DNA of 64,000 nucleotides from the NCBI RefSeq assembly GCF_055900595.2, contig NZ_CM148325.1; one strand, given 5' to 3'. The translations under genes and the position numbers were made by a program. Positions 1 to 5,046 of the stretch are shown here, piece by piece (within the stretch, counting starts at the first letter, position 1; each line of letters begins with the position of its first letter). The notes beneath the pieces were generated by a model, which ran no database searches, was not told the origin of the DNA, and worked only from the letters and a program-made list of their open reading frames with translations.

Positions 1-1927
<1,927 letters not shown>

Positions 1928-2104
1928 TGGAGCACCTCAAAAACACCATCATACACTAAATCAGTAAGTTGGCAGCATCACCAGACACTTCTACAGTTAC
2001 CTTGCGGATGGAGATGCAGTCGACAAATTATTAGCTCTGACGGTATAACCCTCCATCTCCACGGAAAACGCAAAACAGCACAAGTCCTGAATGCTTTAAG
2101 CGTA

Positions 2105-3248
2105 GTGACTCTGTTCATAGTTATCGTCGGCGCCGGATACAGCATCTACCCTGCTCAGGGCAGACGCTATGGCTTGTATTTTCCGTCCGCCACTGGTACT
2201 GCCGTAACCCGGCTTGTTCACGTAAAATTTTTGCCGGGTCGCTTGCCCCCTTCGCCGGTTCACTCCCAGCATTCTTCACAGGTGTTACAAAATTTACAAC
2301 ATCAACTGGGATTAATAGCCGGAGGTGAGGCCGGGAAACAGGCAGCAACGGCAGTGGGGCTCCGTTGCAGTGCTGATACTCTTCTTCGCAGGGTTATTAA
2401 TACCCCGGAGACGAAACAGTCGGGCGCGCCTCATGTCGGTATTGATGAGTGGGCGTGGCATCGGGGCCACCATTACGGCACGTTAATCGTCAATCTTGAT
2501 ACTCACCGTCCCCTCGTCCTGCTTCCCGGTTGCGATCAGAGTACGCTGGCGACCTGGTTCAGAAAATATCCGGAAATACAGGTTGTCTCACGTGACCGTG
2601 GCGGAGTCTATGCGACAGCAGCACGTGAAGGTGCACCTCAGGCCAGACAGATAGCTGATCGATGGCACCTGCTAAAAAATATTGGCGATGCGCCTGAACG
2701 AATGATGTACAGACAGATGCCTCTGATACGTCTTGTTGCCAGTGGGTTGTCACCAAAGAAATCACCTAAGCCAGTACTGTCTGTGCCTGTAGCATCGCTC
2801 CGTCGTCCGGAACGCCTTAAACAGCAAACCCGCCAAAAACGGCATCAGCGTTGGACAGAGGTTATGGCACTACATAACAAGGGATGTGGGTTCAGGGGAA
2901 ATATCCCGTATTACAGGCTTATCCCGTATTACAGGCTTATCACGTGTGACAGTCAGTCTCTGGGTGTGTTCAGGAACATTCCCTGAAATGTCAACCCGGC
3001 CTCCAGAGCGAGGACTTCTGGACCCATGGAGGGAGTGGTTAAAAGAGCAACGAGAAAGTGGTAACTTCGGCGCGTGGCTGCAAGGATGGCAGCTGATGCT
3101 GCGGCTATATGTGAGGCAATCAGCAGTCGCTGGAATAATGGGGGGTGTCGAAAGTCATGTAAATTGGCTAAAAATGCTGAAAGGCCAGATGTATGGTCGA
3201 GCCGGATTTGAACTACTCAGGCAGAGGGTCATGAGTCCACTGGCATGA
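2105..3248 (+). pseudogene. ISL3-family transposase, frameshifted and lacking N-terminal zinc-ribbon region
   Basis: Two overlapping frames (2105..2986 and 2886..3248) together resemble ISL3-family transposases (VGIDEWAWHRGHHYGTLIVNLDTHRPLVLL ... RWHLLKN ... C-terminal GRAGFELLRQRV); N-terminus absent, region upstream is IS1. Confidence 0.7.
2904..2939 (+). repeat. Perfect 18-bp tandem duplication (TCCCGTATTACAGGCTTA x2) inside the ISL3-family transposase pseudogene
   Basis: Direct reading of sequence; gives IPYYRL IPYYRL in one frame. Confidence 0.9.
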
Positions 3249-3274
3249 AAATCTCCATCCAGGTTGCGGAAGAG

Positions 3275-3296
3275 CCACTTTTCATCCGTCGTTGAC
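3275..3296 (+). repeat. 22-bp motif CACTTTTCATCCGTCGTTGACA, copy 2, immediately after a GGTTGCGGAAGAGCC stretch downstream of the ISL3-family transposase
   Basis: Exact identity with 1553..1574. Confidence 0.9.
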
Positions 3297-4083
3297 AGCT
3301 TGGGGGGTAGTGCATCTGTACCTCTAGGTCAAAGGAGGTATTCATATCCATATTAACGACTTGAATATGTTGACAGTACTGATTCAGATTAACGAAAAAC
3401 GACCGAGCTTCTCTACTACGCACCTCACCTATCCAGAGGATTGATGAGTATCCGCATCGGCTACGACGGTGCGTAACGATGAGCTTTGAACAGGGCAAAC
3501 TCTTTCATGACCCGGCCTTGGCAGTACATCAATCAGACCCTGTGACCTCTATTTGCAACTGACGTTTGTCGATAGTATTGATGATATGCTAGTGCAGGGT
3601 AAGAAATTACGAAATATGTTTAATCGGCAAGATTTTGAGTAACGCCTCAACATGCTCAATGAGTCATGTGGTCTGATGAGCATAAGGCTTTAGCCAGCTG
3701 ATATAATCCCGAACTATGCCGTAGTTAGGGCAAAGAATGCGGTAGACGGGTAGGCGTAACTGAACTGGAAATACCAGTATTGTTCATTACGATAAGGTGC
3801 GAAGTGAAGCATCGTGAACGGCTTTAGCCTGTTTGCCACAAGAGTAATGACCGTTTTCAATCGGTTTTAGGTGGATGATGAGGGGGATTTTACTCAGTAG
3901 GGACGACGTCAAAGCCTATCCAGAGATAAATGGAAAAGATAGTATTCGAAATTGAGAACGGTTGGGGTTGGTTATCGTTCTGTTTTAGCAACTAAACAAT
4001 AACTCCCCAACCGTTATCATTTCCAGCCCACGATAATCTGCAATGAACATTAAAAATTCACGGCGGCGGTCGCTTTCCTTAAT

Positions 4084-5046
4084 TTACGTCTCCTCTTGGG
4101 AGTGGATAATATGGGTGCCTGTTTCGCCACGCAGTGCCGCGGACAGGCATTCAGGCGTGGTGATAATCACTCTTTTACCTCCACGTTCCAGGAACTCCAG
4201 ACTGGCAAGAATCTTCGGTAACATACTCCCAGGCGGGAAGTGACCCTCCTGCATGTAACGGGCCATCGTTAGGACATCCACTGTATCCAGTGCATGCTGG
4301 TTGGGTTTCCCAAAATGAATACTCACTTTTTCCACGCCGGTGGTGATCACCAGAATGTCGGCGTGAATTTCGCGAGCCAGTAGCGCGCTAGAGAGATCTT
4401 TGTCGATAACCGCGTCCACGCTTTGGTAATCCCCTGCGTCAGTACGCACCACCGGAATGCCACCGCCGCCCGCGCCAATCACCACAAAGCCTTGCTGGAT
4501 CAGAGTCTTAATGGCAGGTGCTTCGACAATACGTTTCGGTTCCGGCGAGGCGACCACGCGGCGATAGCCCCGTCCGGCATCTTCAACAAAACGCCAGTCA
4601 GGGTTTGCCTTTTGTAGTTCATCACGCTGGTTTTCACTAAAGAATGCACCGATGGGCTTGGTGGGATGGACAAACCCCGGATCGTTTTTATCCACTTCCA
4701 CCTGAGTCACCACGGTGACGGCTTTTTTCTCGCCGTGAGGCGCCAGCCGGTTGTTCAGCGCCTGCTGGATCAGATAGCCAATGCCGCCTTGCGTATCCGC
4801 CACACAGTTCGCCAGCGGCGTTAAGGGTAGCCCTTCGCGCTCGTGGGCTATCTCCGCGCGGCGTAAATCCAGACCGACCTGCGGCCCGTTGCCGTGGGTC
4901 AGCACAATGTCGTAATCGGAAGCCAGCATTTCCAGAACCGTATCGGCGACGGCCTTCACCGCCTCCGCCTGATGCTCAATCGACTGGCTGGCGTTATCTT
5001 TGATAATGCTGTTGCCACCAATGGCAACGACCACAAGTTCTTTCAT
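4084..5046 (-). CDS. yahI: Carbamate kinase-like protein (yahI-type)
   Basis: 320 aa, begins MKELVVVAIGGNSI, carbamate kinase fold motifs (THGNGPQVG, GAGGGGIPV); terminal gene of yah-type cluster. Confidence 0.8.
   Translation of the reverse strand: MKELVVVAIGGNSIIKDNASQSIEHQAEAVKAVADTVLEMLASDYDIVLTHGNGPQVGLDLRRAEIAHEREGLPLTPLANCVADTQGGIGYLIQQALNNRLAPHGEKKAVTVVTQVEVDKNDPGFVHPTKPIGAFFSENQRDELQKANPDWRFVEDAGRGYRRVVASPEPKRIVEAPAIKTLIQQGFVVIGAGGGGIPVVRTDAGDYQSVDAVIDKDLSSALLAREIHADILVITTGVEKVSIHFGKPNQHALDTVDVLTMARYMQEGHFPPGSMLPKILASLEFLERGGKRVIITTPECLSAALRGETGTHIIHSQEET

What the first reader, a model, noticed from the sequence alone, without database searches (positions are those of the whole stretch)
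3297..4083. 787-bp gene-free gap containing a long-loop inverted repeat
No credible ORF lies between the IS cluster and the carbamate kinase-like gene. An 11-bp inverted repeat AACGGTTGGGG...CCCCAACCGTT with a ~37-nt loop sits at about 3957..4015, roughly 70 bp downstream of the gene end. The gap may be a decayed gene or carry a regulatory or RNA element.
Basis: seen in the sequence. Interest (0 to 1): 0.2.

Follow-up and report, generated by a model that had tools for sequence, protein, structure and literature searches.

The report
Dead ISL3 insertion sequence with regulatory hairpin
The "empty" gap is the decayed front two-thirds of a second ISL3-type jumping gene, and its inverted repeat is a fossil of a conserved, apparently undescribed RNA hairpin that living relatives probably use to hold down production of their own transposase.

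Summary
But the gap is not ordinary intergenic DNA. Window 4049->3299 (minus strand) is the 5' 751 bp of an ISL3-family insertion sequence. It is 82% identical in DNA to an intact element on a Shewanella putrefaciens plasmid. It sits 34 bp past the carbamate-kinase-like stop codon. Its start codon is lost (ATG->ATT), it carries in-frame stops and frameshifts, and another ISL3 element cuts it at about codon 222.

The inverted repeat is the outer stem of a roughly 70-nt extended hairpin between the left terminal repeat and the transposase start codon. Relatives from many genera, including the clinically active ISAeme19, keep this hairpin through abundant compensatory changes: 22 of 23 pairs covary, and 85.6% of cells are paired against 63% in shuffles.

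G-U versus A-C asymmetry favours the strand antisense to the transposase. So does a positionally fixed promoter-like site (TTCCCA, 17 bp, TAnnAT) on that strand. Together they suggest an antisense RNA like IS10 RNA-OUT or IS200 art200, mirrored by a start-codon-occluding hairpin in the mRNA leader. No expression data exist. Rfam 15 and the searched literature hold no such element. In this window the copy is a fossil.

The parts
3299..4049 (-). Truncated, decayed ISL3-family insertion sequence (IS #2): left end, leader and the first ~222 codons. The right part and IRR are missing.
   Evidence: blastn gives 82.4% identity to the intact IS on Shewanella putrefaciens pSA70-3, window 4051->3298 against L003 6760->5997. 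No other piece of this transposase is found in the window.
4027..4049 (-). Left terminal inverted repeat (IRL) of IS #2: TGTTCATTGCAGATTATCGTGGG. Relatives read GGTTC[AT]TCGC[AG]GAT.AGCG.G. The tip is ambiguous by 1 nt (4048 or 4049).
   Evidence: Aligned with the IRL of 50 relatives. The Shewanella copy has a matching IRR and 8-bp direct repeats TTAAAAAA.
3299..3952 (-). Transposase pseudogene. The start codon is mutated to ATT (3952-3950). There are several in-frame stops and frame-breaking indels near 3886 (-5), 3522, 3472, 3441 (-1 each) and 3308 (+1), plus an in-frame 3-bp deletion near 3406. It ends at about codon 222.
   Evidence: tblastn. Nucleotide alignment. Weak Pfam DDE_Tnp_ISL3 hit on ORF 3229-3498, 22.4 bits against a cut-off of 23. 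PGAP annotates 3304-3511 as a partial frameshifted 'transposase' in some plasmid records.
3950..4022 (.). Extended hairpin, the finding's inverted repeat. P1 is 3957-3967 with 4005-4015, and weaker outer pairs reach 3948-3955 with 4017-4024. P2 is 3971-3980 with 3994-4003. The apical stem-loop is 3982-3992. The covariance-model match spans 3950-4033 on the plus strand.
   Evidence: CM R1 hit of 43.3 bits, E 4e-10. Covariation in relatives.
3982..3992 (.). Apical stem-loop. In the window's plus strand the conserved antisense-strand loop motif GU-UUGGCG-AC (sense GTCGCCAAAC) has degraded to GUUUUAGCAAC.
   Evidence: Alignments. The window's CM score is lower than the intact Shewanella copy's (43.3 against 78.8 bits).
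3917..3945 (+). Relic of the conserved antisense (outward-reading) promoter-like site: -35 TATCCA (3917-3922), a 17-bp spacer, and -10 TAGTAT (3940-3945). That is 7 of 12 matches, against TTCCCA-17-TAATAT in the Shewanella copy.
   Evidence: The scan tool does not call this site in the window but calls the homologous site in Vibrio L016.
4050..4083 (.). The only true intergenic DNA in the gap: a 34-bp spacer between the IS tip and the stop codon (4084-4086) of the carbamate-kinase-like gene. It ends in the AT-rich target sequence AATTTTTAA.
3250..3297 (+). Right end of a different ISL3-family element (IS #1, roughly 1928-3297, itself frameshifted) that truncates IS #2. Context only, not part of the element.
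   Evidence: Window 3250-3297/3298 recurs at 94-98% identity in hundreds of unrelated E. coli locations, and the homology stops there. Annotation. Only 26% aa identity to IS #2's relative.

Best explanation
**Shown.** Window 4049->3299 (minus strand) is the front part of a dead ISL3-family insertion sequence. It inserted 34 bp downstream of, and co-directionally with, the carbamate-kinase-like gene. It then decayed and was cut off at about codon 222 by the end of another ISL3-type element. The inverted repeat is stem P1 of a ~70-nt three-part hairpin (P1, internal loop, P2, small apical stem-loop). Intact relatives carry this hairpin between the left terminal repeat and the transposase start codon, with its inner end 0-5 nt from that codon. 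It is conserved as a structure by compensatory changes.

**Inferred.** In living relatives the hairpin is mainly the body of a short antisense RNA. That RNA would be transcribed outward from a sigma-70-type promoter lying over codons 2-11 of the transposase gene, starting about at the start codon. It would pair with the transposase mRNA leader, probably beginning at the conserved G/C-rich apical loops, and block ribosome binding. IS10 RNA-OUT and IS200 art200 work this way. The mirror-image hairpin in any transposase transcript that includes both arms would additionally bury the start-codon region, which has no Shine-Dalgarno sequence of its own.

**In this window.** The copy has no intact transposase, no right end, a weakened promoter and a mutated loop, and no intact partner element was found in E. 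coli. It is therefore a fossil with no transposition to regulate.
For: **IS identity**
- 82.4% nucleotide identity over 765 aligned columns to an intact element. That element is bounded by inverted repeats and 8-bp direct repeats, and its 397-aa product has the DDE_Tnp_ISL3 and HTH_Tnp_ISL3 domains.
- tblastn gives E 4e-68 with stops and frameshifts.

**Conserved layout**
- In all but six loci where the terminal motif was found, the IRL tip lies 92-102 nt before the start codon.
- Each of 51 distinct leaders folds into the same extended hairpin ending 0-5 nt from the start codon.

**Structure**
- A covariance model built from 13 Shewanella, Ferrimonas, Aliagarivorans, Vibrio, Photobacterium and metagenome-assembled gammaproteobacterial sequences finds the element at the expected place in the window (43.3 bits, E 4e-10) and in other genera.
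- On 30 sequences not used for training, 85.6% of cells pair against 63.0% in shuffles (0 of 500 shuffles reach it). 22 of 23 pairs show changes on both sides. The covariation score is 0.61, against 0.23 in shuffles and at most 0.13 when partners are slid.

**Strand**
- The antisense strand folds more stably in 46 of 51 sequences (mean -30.5 against -26.3 kcal/mol). G-U pairs number 167 on the antisense strand and 52 on the sense strand.
- G-U cells outnumber A-C cells 73 to 14 in the non-training alignment.
- RNAalifold on the same columns gives -19.2 (antisense) against -12.6 (sense).

**Antisense promoter**
- T(T/G)(C/G)CCA, exactly 17 bp, then TAnnAT (T42, A43, n, n, A38, T42 of 44 sequences). 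The hexamer's two A positions are complements of third codon positions, and the encoded residues differ between groups.
- A sigma-70-like site with its -10 ending at CDS position +4 or +7 is present in 32 of 41 sequences, while no sense-strand site recurs at a fixed position.
- The scan tool calls the site in Vibrio.

**Analogy**
- IS200 has an inverted repeat in its left end forming a 5'UTR stem-loop that hides the ribosome-binding site. [quoted passage not shown] IS10 RNA-OUT pairs with the 5' end of RNA-IN (PMC4513863).

**Relic status**
- The start codon is lost, the loop motif is mutated, and the promoter matches 7 of 12 positions.
- A 65-70%-sensitivity blastn with the window's 785-bp remnant, which covers only the first two-thirds of the element, finds nothing but copies of the remnant (>=99% identity) in 5,426 E. 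coli genomes.
Against: - No expression data. The antisense transcript, its 5' end and its 3' end are all predictions.
- The -35 hexamer coincides with the conserved Trp-Glu or Trp-Pro codons of the N-terminal W(E/P)GF motif, so its conservation could be purely protein-level.
- A U-rich tail after the antisense hairpin is seen in AT-rich hosts (Vibrio, Shewanella, the Marinobacter type) but not in the Pseudomonas-type elements. Termination is therefore unexplained there.
- The covariation alignment was fitted to the model's structure, and the sequences are phylogenetically related. The shuffle counts and the Wilcoxon p-value are not true probabilities.
- In the window copy the sense strand is the more stable one, as in 4 other sequences.
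- The transposase's own promoter was not found, so whether native mRNA contains both arms is unknown.
Confidence: 0.6

Rival explanations
1. Cis-only leader hairpin. The structure acts solely in the transposase mRNA. It buries the start-codon region so that transcripts reading in from outside, or all transcripts, are poorly translated. This would resemble fold-back inhibition in IS10 and the IS200 5'UTR stem-loop, with no functional antisense RNA.
For: - The inner end of P1 lies 0-5 nt from the start codon, and there is no Shine-Dalgarno sequence between them.
- No conserved sense promoter lies inside the loop or elsewhere in the left end. Most transposase transcripts would therefore contain both arms.
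- The sense hairpin is itself stable: z = -4.1 in Shewanella and -8.3 in the window.
- IS200 shows that such a stem-loop works independently of the antisense RNA.
Against: - A sense-only function predicts more G-U than A-C pairs on the sense strand. The opposite is seen: 52 against 167, and 14 against 73.
- It also leaves unexplained the conserved TAnnAT at synonymous sites on the opposite strand.
- This model is not exclusive of the main explanation, which includes the effect as a second layer.
Confidence: 0.25
2. Split ribosome-binding site. The hairpin activates translation by bringing a Shine-Dalgarno-like purine run just 5' of P1 next to the start codon, as described for phage T4 genes 38 and 25 (from my own knowledge of those systems).
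For: Several groups carry AGGAG, GAGGTG, GAGGA or GTGAGGG immediately 5' of P1, and no Shine-Dalgarno sequence lies between P1 and the ATG.
Against: - The purine run is absent in the Vibrio, Shewanella (and window), Lentisphaera and enteric groups.
- In the Marinobacter-type group it pairs with the sequence covering the A of the ATG, so it is hidden rather than presented.
- The strand asymmetry points to the other strand.
Confidence: 0.05
3. An element serving the neighbouring operon. The hairpin would be the terminator or a 3'-end stabiliser of the carbamate-kinase-like operon, whether native or exapted from the IS relic.
For: - The hairpin lies 69-137 nt downstream of the stop codon on the same strand as the gene, and it is very stable there (-36.8 kcal/mol).
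- It has stayed intact while the transposase ORF decayed.
Against: - No T-run follows it on the gene's strand, and the terminator scan finds nothing in 3850-4120.
- The sequence is homologous over its full length to the IS leader of elements in unrelated contexts, so it did not originate with the operon.
- The leader's identity to the Shewanella copy is not clearly higher than that of the rest of the remnant. There is thus no sign of new selection.
Confidence: 0.05
4. A chance inverted repeat, or a DNA-level protein-binding site (transposase or a host factor), in otherwise meaningless spacer DNA.
For: About one perfect 11-bp inverted repeat with a short loop is expected per 64 kb by chance. 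Subterminal regions of insertion sequences often bind transposase (general knowledge).
Against: - The arms change sequence between lineages while staying complementary. All 10 P1 pairs covary.
- The strand-specific excess of G-U over A-C pairs has no meaning for double-stranded DNA.
Confidence: 0.03

Closest known systems
IS200 left end: tnpA 5'UTR stem-loop plus antisense sRNA art200 (STnc490)
   Same: - An inverted repeat inside the left end forms a long stem-loop in the transposase leader that hides the translation start region.
- A ~90-nt RNA is encoded on the opposite strand, complementary to the leader and the first codons.
- Pairing nucleates at G/C-rich terminal loops (PMC4513863).
- The geometry here is nearly the same: the hairpin runs from about nt 25 to 95 of the element, the start codon is at about 93-102, and the predicted antisense start is at the start codon.
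   Different: - The transposase family differs. IS200 uses a HUH/Y1 enzyme on single-stranded DNA, while this element uses a DDE ISL3 enzyme.
- There is no sequence or Rfam similarity.
- IS200 has a near-consensus Shine-Dalgarno sequence inside the stem, whereas these elements have none next to the ATG.
- For the ISL3 elements everything about expression is inferred.
IS10/Tn10 RNA-OUT / RNA-IN antisense control (Rfam RNA-OUT)
   Same: - An outward-reading promoter just inside the transposase start makes a stem-loop RNA of about 70 nt.
- That RNA covers the translation start region of the transposase mRNA and blocks 30S binding.
- The same inverted repeat can fold back in read-through transcripts (my knowledge of Davis, Simons and Kleckner 1985, not re-read here).
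   Different: - IS10 belongs to the IS4 family.
- No RNA-OUT model hit in the window or in intact relatives.
- In IS10 the transposase promoter lies within the repeat, so native mRNA lacks one arm. No such promoter was found here.
ISL3-family insertion sequences, e.g. ISAeme19 (1,304 bp, 19-bp imperfect IRs, 8-bp direct repeats; PMC12554700)
   Same: - The window remnant encodes the N-terminal part of a DDE_Tnp_ISL3 transposase and has a matching left terminal repeat.
- ISAeme19 and a Serratia plasmid ISL3 share the leader hairpin layout.
   Different: - The window copy is truncated and dead. Its nearest intact relative is an unnamed Shewanella element (82% DNA identity), and ISAeme19's transposase is only ~60% identical to that relative's.
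- IS #1 next door is a distant ISL3 member (26% aa identity) with no model hit.
Rho-independent terminator
   Same: It is a stable G/C-containing hairpin downstream of a gene. On the antisense strand of AT-rich relatives a U-rich tail follows it.
   Different: - The 37-nt structured 'loop' exceeds the 3-8 nt of terminator loops.
- No T-run follows on the gene's strand.
- The scan finds no terminator.

Membership tests
ISL3-family insertion sequence | Encodes a DDE transposase of the ISL3 type (Pfam DDE_Tnp_ISL3, with the HTH_Tnp_ISL3 N-terminal domain) | tested here: met
   - tblastn of the Shewanella ISL3 transposase against the window: aa 26-222, 63% identity, E 4e-68.
- That protein scores 234 bits on DDE_Tnp_ISL3 and 46 bits on HTH_Tnp_ISL3.
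- The window's own 89-aa fragment scores 22.4 bits, just under the 23-bit cut-off. The gene is a pseudogene.
ISL3-family insertion sequence | Terminal inverted repeats at both ends | tested here: inconclusive
   The left repeat is present at 4027-4049 and aligns with the GGTTC[AT]TCGC... termini of 50 relatives. The right end is missing because the element is truncated at 3298/3299. The intact Shewanella relative has both.
ISL3-family insertion sequence | 8-bp target-site duplication | not testable with these tools
   Only one end survives in the window. The flank is AT-rich (AATTTTTAA). The Shewanella copy is flanked by TTAAAAAA on both sides, and ISAeme19 is reported with 8-bp direct repeats (PMC12554700).
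IS10 RNA-OUT (Rfam family) | Match to the curated covariance model | tested here: not met
   cmscan against Rfam 15 at E<=10 on window 3200-4200 and at E<=1 on eight intact relatives returned only chance hits: mir-3613, BTnc060, mir-392 and c-di-AMP.
IS-encoded cis-antisense RNA controlling transposase translation (functional class: RNA-OUT, art200) | A stable RNA structure on the strand antisense to the transposase translation start region, conserved by covariation | tested here: met
   - 22 of 23 pairs covary, with 85.6% of cells paired against 63% in shuffles.
- The antisense strand is favoured in 46 of 51 folds, by 167 against 52 G-U pairs, and by -19.2 against -12.6 kcal/mol in the consensus fold.
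IS-encoded cis-antisense RNA controlling transposase translation (functional class: RNA-OUT, art200) | A promoter driving the antisense transcript | tested here: inconclusive
   A positionally fixed TTCCCA-17-TAnnAT site is present in 32 of 41 sequences by consensus scan and in 42-43 of 44 sequences at the key -10 positions. It is sequence evidence only, and the -35 overlaps conserved codons. The window copy is degraded to 7 of 12 matches.
IS-encoded cis-antisense RNA controlling transposase translation (functional class: RNA-OUT, art200) | The antisense transcript exists and represses the transposase | not testable with these tools
   No transcriptome or reporter data were available. The literature searches found no study of it.
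Rho-independent terminator | A G/C-rich stem with a 3-8 nt loop followed by a T-run | tested here: not met
   No terminator-like site in window 3850-4120 on either strand. The loop is 37 nt.

The most novel reading that the evidence does not exclude
The inverted repeat is the fossil of a previously undescribed family of transposon-encoded antisense RNAs. These would be RNA-OUT/art200-like, about 70-100 nt long, with a conserved UUGGCG apical loop. They would be shared by a large branch of ISL3 elements across Gammaproteobacteria and beyond, including ISAeme19, which is currently inactivating mgrB in carbapenem-resistant Klebsiella. The family would limit transposase translation in a copy-number-dependent way. 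A less likely extension is that the ColV-plasmid relic is still transcribed and now affects the 3' end of the adjacent carbamate-kinase-like operon.
Probability: 0.5. Interest if true: 0.55.

Novelty: new member of a known kind. Interest (0 to 1): 0.4.

Why it matters
**For this window.** The result is housekeeping. About 750 bp that look empty should be annotated as an ISL3 pseudogene plus its left end. That moves the true boundary of the IS nest to 34 bp from the carbamate-kinase-like gene. It also shows that the module was assembled by nested IS insertions, one of them of a Shewanella-like element.

**More generally.** The fossil led to a strongly covarying RNA structure, with an associated antisense promoter-like site, in living ISL3 elements. 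This structure is absent from Rfam 15 and from the searched literature. If it works as inferred, it adds the ISL3 family to the short list of insertion sequences known to be controlled by antisense RNA; IS10 and IS200 are the two cited here. It would also give a handle on what limits the transposition of ISAeme19-type elements that disrupt mgrB and cause polymyxin resistance (PMC12554700).

Tried and rejected
1. **MAFFT plus RNAalifold on the full leaders.** The MAFFT alignment of 51 full leaders followed by RNAalifold gave no structure at all, because the covarying arms were misaligned. A covariance model built from a close subgroup solved this.
2. **Rfam searches.** The window and eight intact elements returned only chance hits.
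3. **Literature searches.** I searched for ISL3 with antisense RNA, stem-loop or translation, and for ISAeme19. Nothing on regulation turned up. The second query was too loose and returned eukaryotic and viral papers.
4. **Full-text search for the loop motif as a sequence string.** It returned only unrelated primer sequences.
5. **Split ribosome-binding site.** The purine run 5' of P1 is present in only some groups, so I rejected this as the general mechanism.
6. **A transposase promoter inside the hairpin loop (the IS10 design).** No positionally conserved sense-strand sigma-70 site was found.
7. **Intrinsic terminator for the neighbouring gene.** No terminator was called.
8. **An upstream ORF in the Shewanella and window leader.** It starts at the ATG in GGAAATGAAAAC, but the Vibrio-group leaders have no ATG upstream of the transposase start, so it is not a shared feature. 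I dropped it.
9. **An IS #1 frameshift from the repeat at 2902-2945.** The period is 18 bp, which keeps the frame, so this is not the cause.
Full report
**1. The observation**

A perfect 11-bp inverted repeat, AACGGTTGGGG / CCCCAACCGTT, lies at 3957-3967 and 4005-4015 with 37 nt between the arms. With mismatches it extends to 18-nt arms at 3950-3967 and 4005-4022. The nearest ORF of any size is the carbamate-kinase-like gene at 4084..5046 on the minus strand. Nothing longer than 89 aa is open between 3299 and 4083.

By itself the repeat is not remarkable. Dinucleotide shuffles of the window give 0.85 such repeats on average, and the window holds eight such hits. The 81-nt segment does fold far better than shuffles, on both strands: -36.8 kcal/mol (z = -8.3) on the minus strand and -32.1 kcal/mol (z = -6.0) on the plus strand.

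**2. Where the window comes from and what the gap is**

The region is 100% identical to ColV/ColBM-type IncF plasmids of avian-pathogenic and other E. coli. The same module also occurs at 45 chromosomal places: 126 records hold at least 80% of the query, in 121 of 5,426 genomes. In p1ColV5155 the annotated neighbours are IS1, IS100 (istA/istB), an IS1 fragment and a frameshifted ISL3 transposase. Then come a short 'transposase' pseudogene that maps to window 3304-3511, the carbamate kinase family gene, a 516-aa hypothetical protein, a DUF1116/YlbE protein and FdrA.

A more sensitive blastn against plasmids gave the key hit. Window 3303-4051 is 82% identical to a stretch of Shewanella putrefaciens plasmid pSA70-3 annotated as an ISL3-family transposase gene plus about 100 bp upstream of it. 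Three features show that the Shewanella element is a complete IS:
- It has terminal inverted repeats (GGTTCATCGCAGAT... and GGTTCATCGCGGAT...).
- It has 8-bp direct repeats TTAAAAAA.
- It encodes a 397-aa protein with the DDE_Tnp_ISL3 and HTH_Tnp_ISL3 domains.

A direct alignment runs from window 4051 down to 3298, with 82.4% identity over 765 columns and six indel events. Four of these events break the reading frame. tblastn aligns residues 26-222 at 63% identity (E 4e-68), through several in-frame stops and frameshifts. The start codon has become ATT at 3952-3950.

Homology stops at 3298/3299. That is exactly where the right end of a different ISL3-type element (IS #1) stops. Window 3250-3297/3298 recurs at hundreds of unrelated E. 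coli sites, and the match ends there. The missing 3' part of the transposase is nowhere else in the window.

The 787-bp gap therefore consists of two things: 751 bp of a dead, truncated IS (4049->3299, minus strand) and 34 bp of true spacer (4050-4083).

**3. What the inverted repeat is**

In the intact Shewanella copy the repeat lies between the left terminal repeat and the transposase start codon. One arm ends 6 nt before the ATG.

I fetched 80 loci encoding relatives of that transposase at 99-55% aa identity. They come from Shewanella, Ferrimonas, Aliagarivorans, Vibrio, Photobacterium, Marinobacter, Alcanivorax, Pseudomonas/Stutzerimonas, Tatumella, Kluyvera, Pectobacterium, Buttiauxella, Aeromonas, Lentisphaera and several metagenome bins.

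In all but six loci where the terminal motif could be found, the IS tip lies 92-102 nt before the start codon. Every one of 51 distinct leaders folds into the same extended hairpin, which has three parts:
- **Outer stem P1.** Its inner end lies 0-5 nt from the start codon.
- **Internal loop and second stem P2.**
- **Small apical stem-loop.** It carries a nearly invariant sequence, GTCGCCAAAC on the sense strand and GUUUGGCGAC on the opposite strand.

The arm sequences differ between lineages yet stay complementary. Examples are AACGGTTGG/CCAACCGTT, GACGGCGGT/ACCGCCGTC, GACAG.CAGGG/CCCTGCTGTC and AAGTCGTTCTC/GAGAACGACTT.

A plain MAFFT alignment hid this. I therefore built a covariance model from 13 Shewanella-to-Vibrio sequences with a hand-drawn structure. 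The model finds the window copy (3950-4033, 43.3 bits, E 4e-10). It also finds the element at the expected position in the other genera, in a Serratia plasmid ISL3 and in the named element ISAeme19.

I then measured covariation on 30 matches that were not part of the training set:

| Measure | Observed | Control |
|---|---|---|
| Cells forming standard pairs | 85.6% | 63.0% in shuffles (0 of 500 reach it) |
| Pairs with changes on both sides | 22 of 23 | - |
| Covariation score | 0.61 | 0.23 shuffled; at most 0.13 when partners are slid |
| P1 cells paired | 93% | - |
| P1 pairs that covary | all 10 | - |

There are caveats. The alignment was fitted to the structure, and the sequences are related. 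Even so, the signal is large, and it is also visible by eye in unaligned sequences.

**4. Which strand**

Transitions in a stem give G-U on one strand and A-C on the other, so their ratio indicates the strand under selection. Three tests agree:
- I folded each strand independently. The strand antisense to the transposase is more stable in 46 of 51 sequences (mean -30.5 against -26.3 kcal/mol), with 167 G-U pairs against 52.
- In the non-training alignment, G-U cells outnumber A-C cells 73 to 14.
- RNAalifold on the same columns gives -19.2 kcal/mol antisense against -12.6 sense.

The antisense strand also carries a promoter-like site at a fixed position: T(T/G)(C/G)CCA, exactly 17 bp, then TAnnAT. 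The -10 hexamer ends 1 or 4 nt before the complement of the start codon.

The -35 hexamer is the complement of the conserved Trp-Glu or Trp-Pro codons, so it may be conserved for the protein's sake. The -10 hexamer is more telling. T, A, A and T at positions 1, 2, 5 and 6 are kept in 42, 43, 38 and 42 of 44 sequences. Meanwhile the encoded residues differ (N-I-T, N-H-T, A-N, P-I, D-A and others). The two A positions are complements of third codon positions.

A consensus scan finds such a site in 32 of 41 sequences on the antisense strand. It finds no positionally recurrent site on the sense strand. The promoter tool independently calls TTCCCA-17-TATGAT in Vibrio.

The predicted transcript would start about at the start codon and read outward through the hairpin towards the IS tip. 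In AT-rich hosts a U-rich tail follows the hairpin. In the Pseudomonas-type elements it does not.

**5. How it most likely works**

*Shown:*
- The gap is a dead ISL3 element.
- The hairpin is a conserved structure belonging to that element's left end.
- It abuts a start codon that lacks its own Shine-Dalgarno sequence.
- The strand asymmetry and a fixed promoter-like site favour the antisense strand.

*Inferred:* intact elements make a short antisense RNA whose stem-loop body is this hairpin. The RNA pairs with the transposase leader, probably starting at the complementary G/C-rich apical loops. The antisense loop UUGGCG also fits the YUNR U-turn pattern that I recall from Franch et al. 1999, which I did not re-read here. 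Pairing would block ribosome binding. The mirror-image hairpin in the mRNA would give a second, cis-acting block.

This is the design demonstrated for IS200 (a left-end inverted repeat forming a 5'UTR stem-loop that hides the ribosome-binding site, plus the art200 RNA, with loop-loop nucleation). IS10 RNA-OUT is a second demonstrated antisense control, pairing its terminal loop with the 5' end of the transposase mRNA to block ribosome binding (PMC4513863).

I put about 0.6 on the combined statement. The IS-relic part is near certain. The conserved RNA structure is about 0.9. The antisense-RNA mechanism is roughly 0.55-0.6.

*Rivals:*
- A cis-only leader hairpin, which the G-U asymmetry and the synonymous-site conservation contradict.
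- A split ribosome-binding site, for which the purine run is present in only some groups.
- A terminator or stabiliser for the neighbouring operon, which lacks a T-run, gets no terminator call and shows IS homology throughout.
- Chance or a DNA-binding site, which covariation and strand asymmetry contradict.

**6. The copy in this window**

This copy has lost its start codon, its reading frame, its right end and part of the loop motif (GUUUUAGCAAC in place of GUUUGGCGAC). Its promoter-like site is down to 7 of 12 matches. The stems are intact, and here the sense strand happens to be the more stable one, which fits drift after inactivation.

A blastn sensitive to about 65-70% identity finds nothing in 5,426 E. 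coli genomes except copies of the remnant at >=99% identity. That query covers only the first two-thirds of the element. No intact partner for the relic was therefore found. I conclude that it is a fossil.

Exaptation as a 3' structure of the carbamate-kinase-like operon cannot be excluded, but nothing supports it.

**7. Comparison with what is known, and novelty**

The remnant qualifies as an ISL3-family element on transposase homology and on its left terminal repeat. The right repeat and the target duplication cannot be checked because the element is truncated.

The hairpin matches no Rfam 15 family, in the window or in intact relatives. My literature searches found no description of a leader hairpin or antisense RNA in ISL3 elements. 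The library lacks many subscription papers, and ISfinder could not be queried.

The element works like IS200 art200 with its 5'UTR stem-loop, and like IS10 RNA-OUT. It is not a member of either family. I classify it as a new member of a known kind of system. For the window itself the finding is ordinary: an unannotated IS remnant.

The wider element has some practical interest. ISAeme19, which shares the layout, is actively transposing into mgrB in carbapenem-resistant Klebsiella (PMC12554700).

**8. Scores**

Interest is 0.4. The window feature is a fossil, but it exposes a well-supported and apparently undescribed RNA element with a testable mechanism.

Noticed in passing
L011, L016, L017, L023, L033, L055, L057, L068, L072, L077, L084 (about 30 nt upstream of the IRL in each). 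L016 1380-1405.: Many intact copies of this IS group sit immediately after a G/C-rich hairpin and T-run, the form of a rho-independent terminator. The IS left end abuts the T-tract and the transposase gene is co-directional with the upstream gene. This suggests a target preference for terminator T-tracts, or survival of insertions shielded from read-through. The window copy also sits just past a gene end, in AATTTTTAA.
   Followed up: partly
window 2902-2945: An 18-bp tandem repeat (TATCCCGTATTACAGGCT, 2.4 copies, 96% matches) lies inside the ORF of the neighbouring ISL3 element IS #1. It duplicates the peptide IPYYRL in frame.
   Followed up: partly
window 76-3297: A nest of insertion sequences lies upstream of the finding: IS100 (istA/istB ORFs at 76-1508), an IS1 fragment (~1518-1927, minus strand), and a frameshifted ISL3 element (~1928-3297). 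The right end of that ISL3 element recurs at hundreds of E. coli chromosomal sites.
   Followed up: partly
L001 10905-12451 versus L002 10905-12452: In plasmid p1ColV5155, fdrA in the adjacent fdrA-ylbE-permease-carbamate-kinase-like cluster is annotated as frameshifted, and the DUF2877 gene as truncated. In the chromosomal copy of strain 135 both are intact. I did not check the state in the window.
   Followed up: no
window 12905/12963, 25580/25647, 38368/38388, 45000/45018, 55851/55866, 63785/63809: Six other loci with perfect 11-bp inverted repeats and short loops bring the window to eight hits, against 0.85 expected from shuffles. None was examined.
   Followed up: no
H77, H99 (Klebsiella pneumoniae plasmids); 45 chromosomal places in E. 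coli: The identical IS remnant, together with the carbamate-kinase-like module, also occurs on Klebsiella pneumoniae plasmids and in E. coli chromosomes at 99.4-100% identity. The whole block therefore moves as a unit. Some plasmids carry a further break at window ~3730 or ~3764.
   Followed up: no
sense strand of the leaders, e.g. L003 6690-6710 (CAAACAAAAACAA); window 3975-3990: The 3' side of the hairpin's upper part is a C/A-rich run of A-R-N triplets on the mRNA strand. It resembles the single-stranded C/A-rich stretch discussed as a possible translational enhancer in IS200, and it also fits the A-R-N pattern I recall for Hfq binding (from memory, not checked here). This is speculative and untested.
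   Followed up: no
L085 1300-1377 (ISAeme19 in E. coli pESC15ND21-1, next to rmtB): ISAeme19 carries a variant apical motif (TCTCCAAAC instead of TCGCCAAAC), and its annotated start is a GTG directly after P1. Elsewhere, tblastn matches to it begin only at residue 40 of the Shewanella protein.
   Followed up: partly
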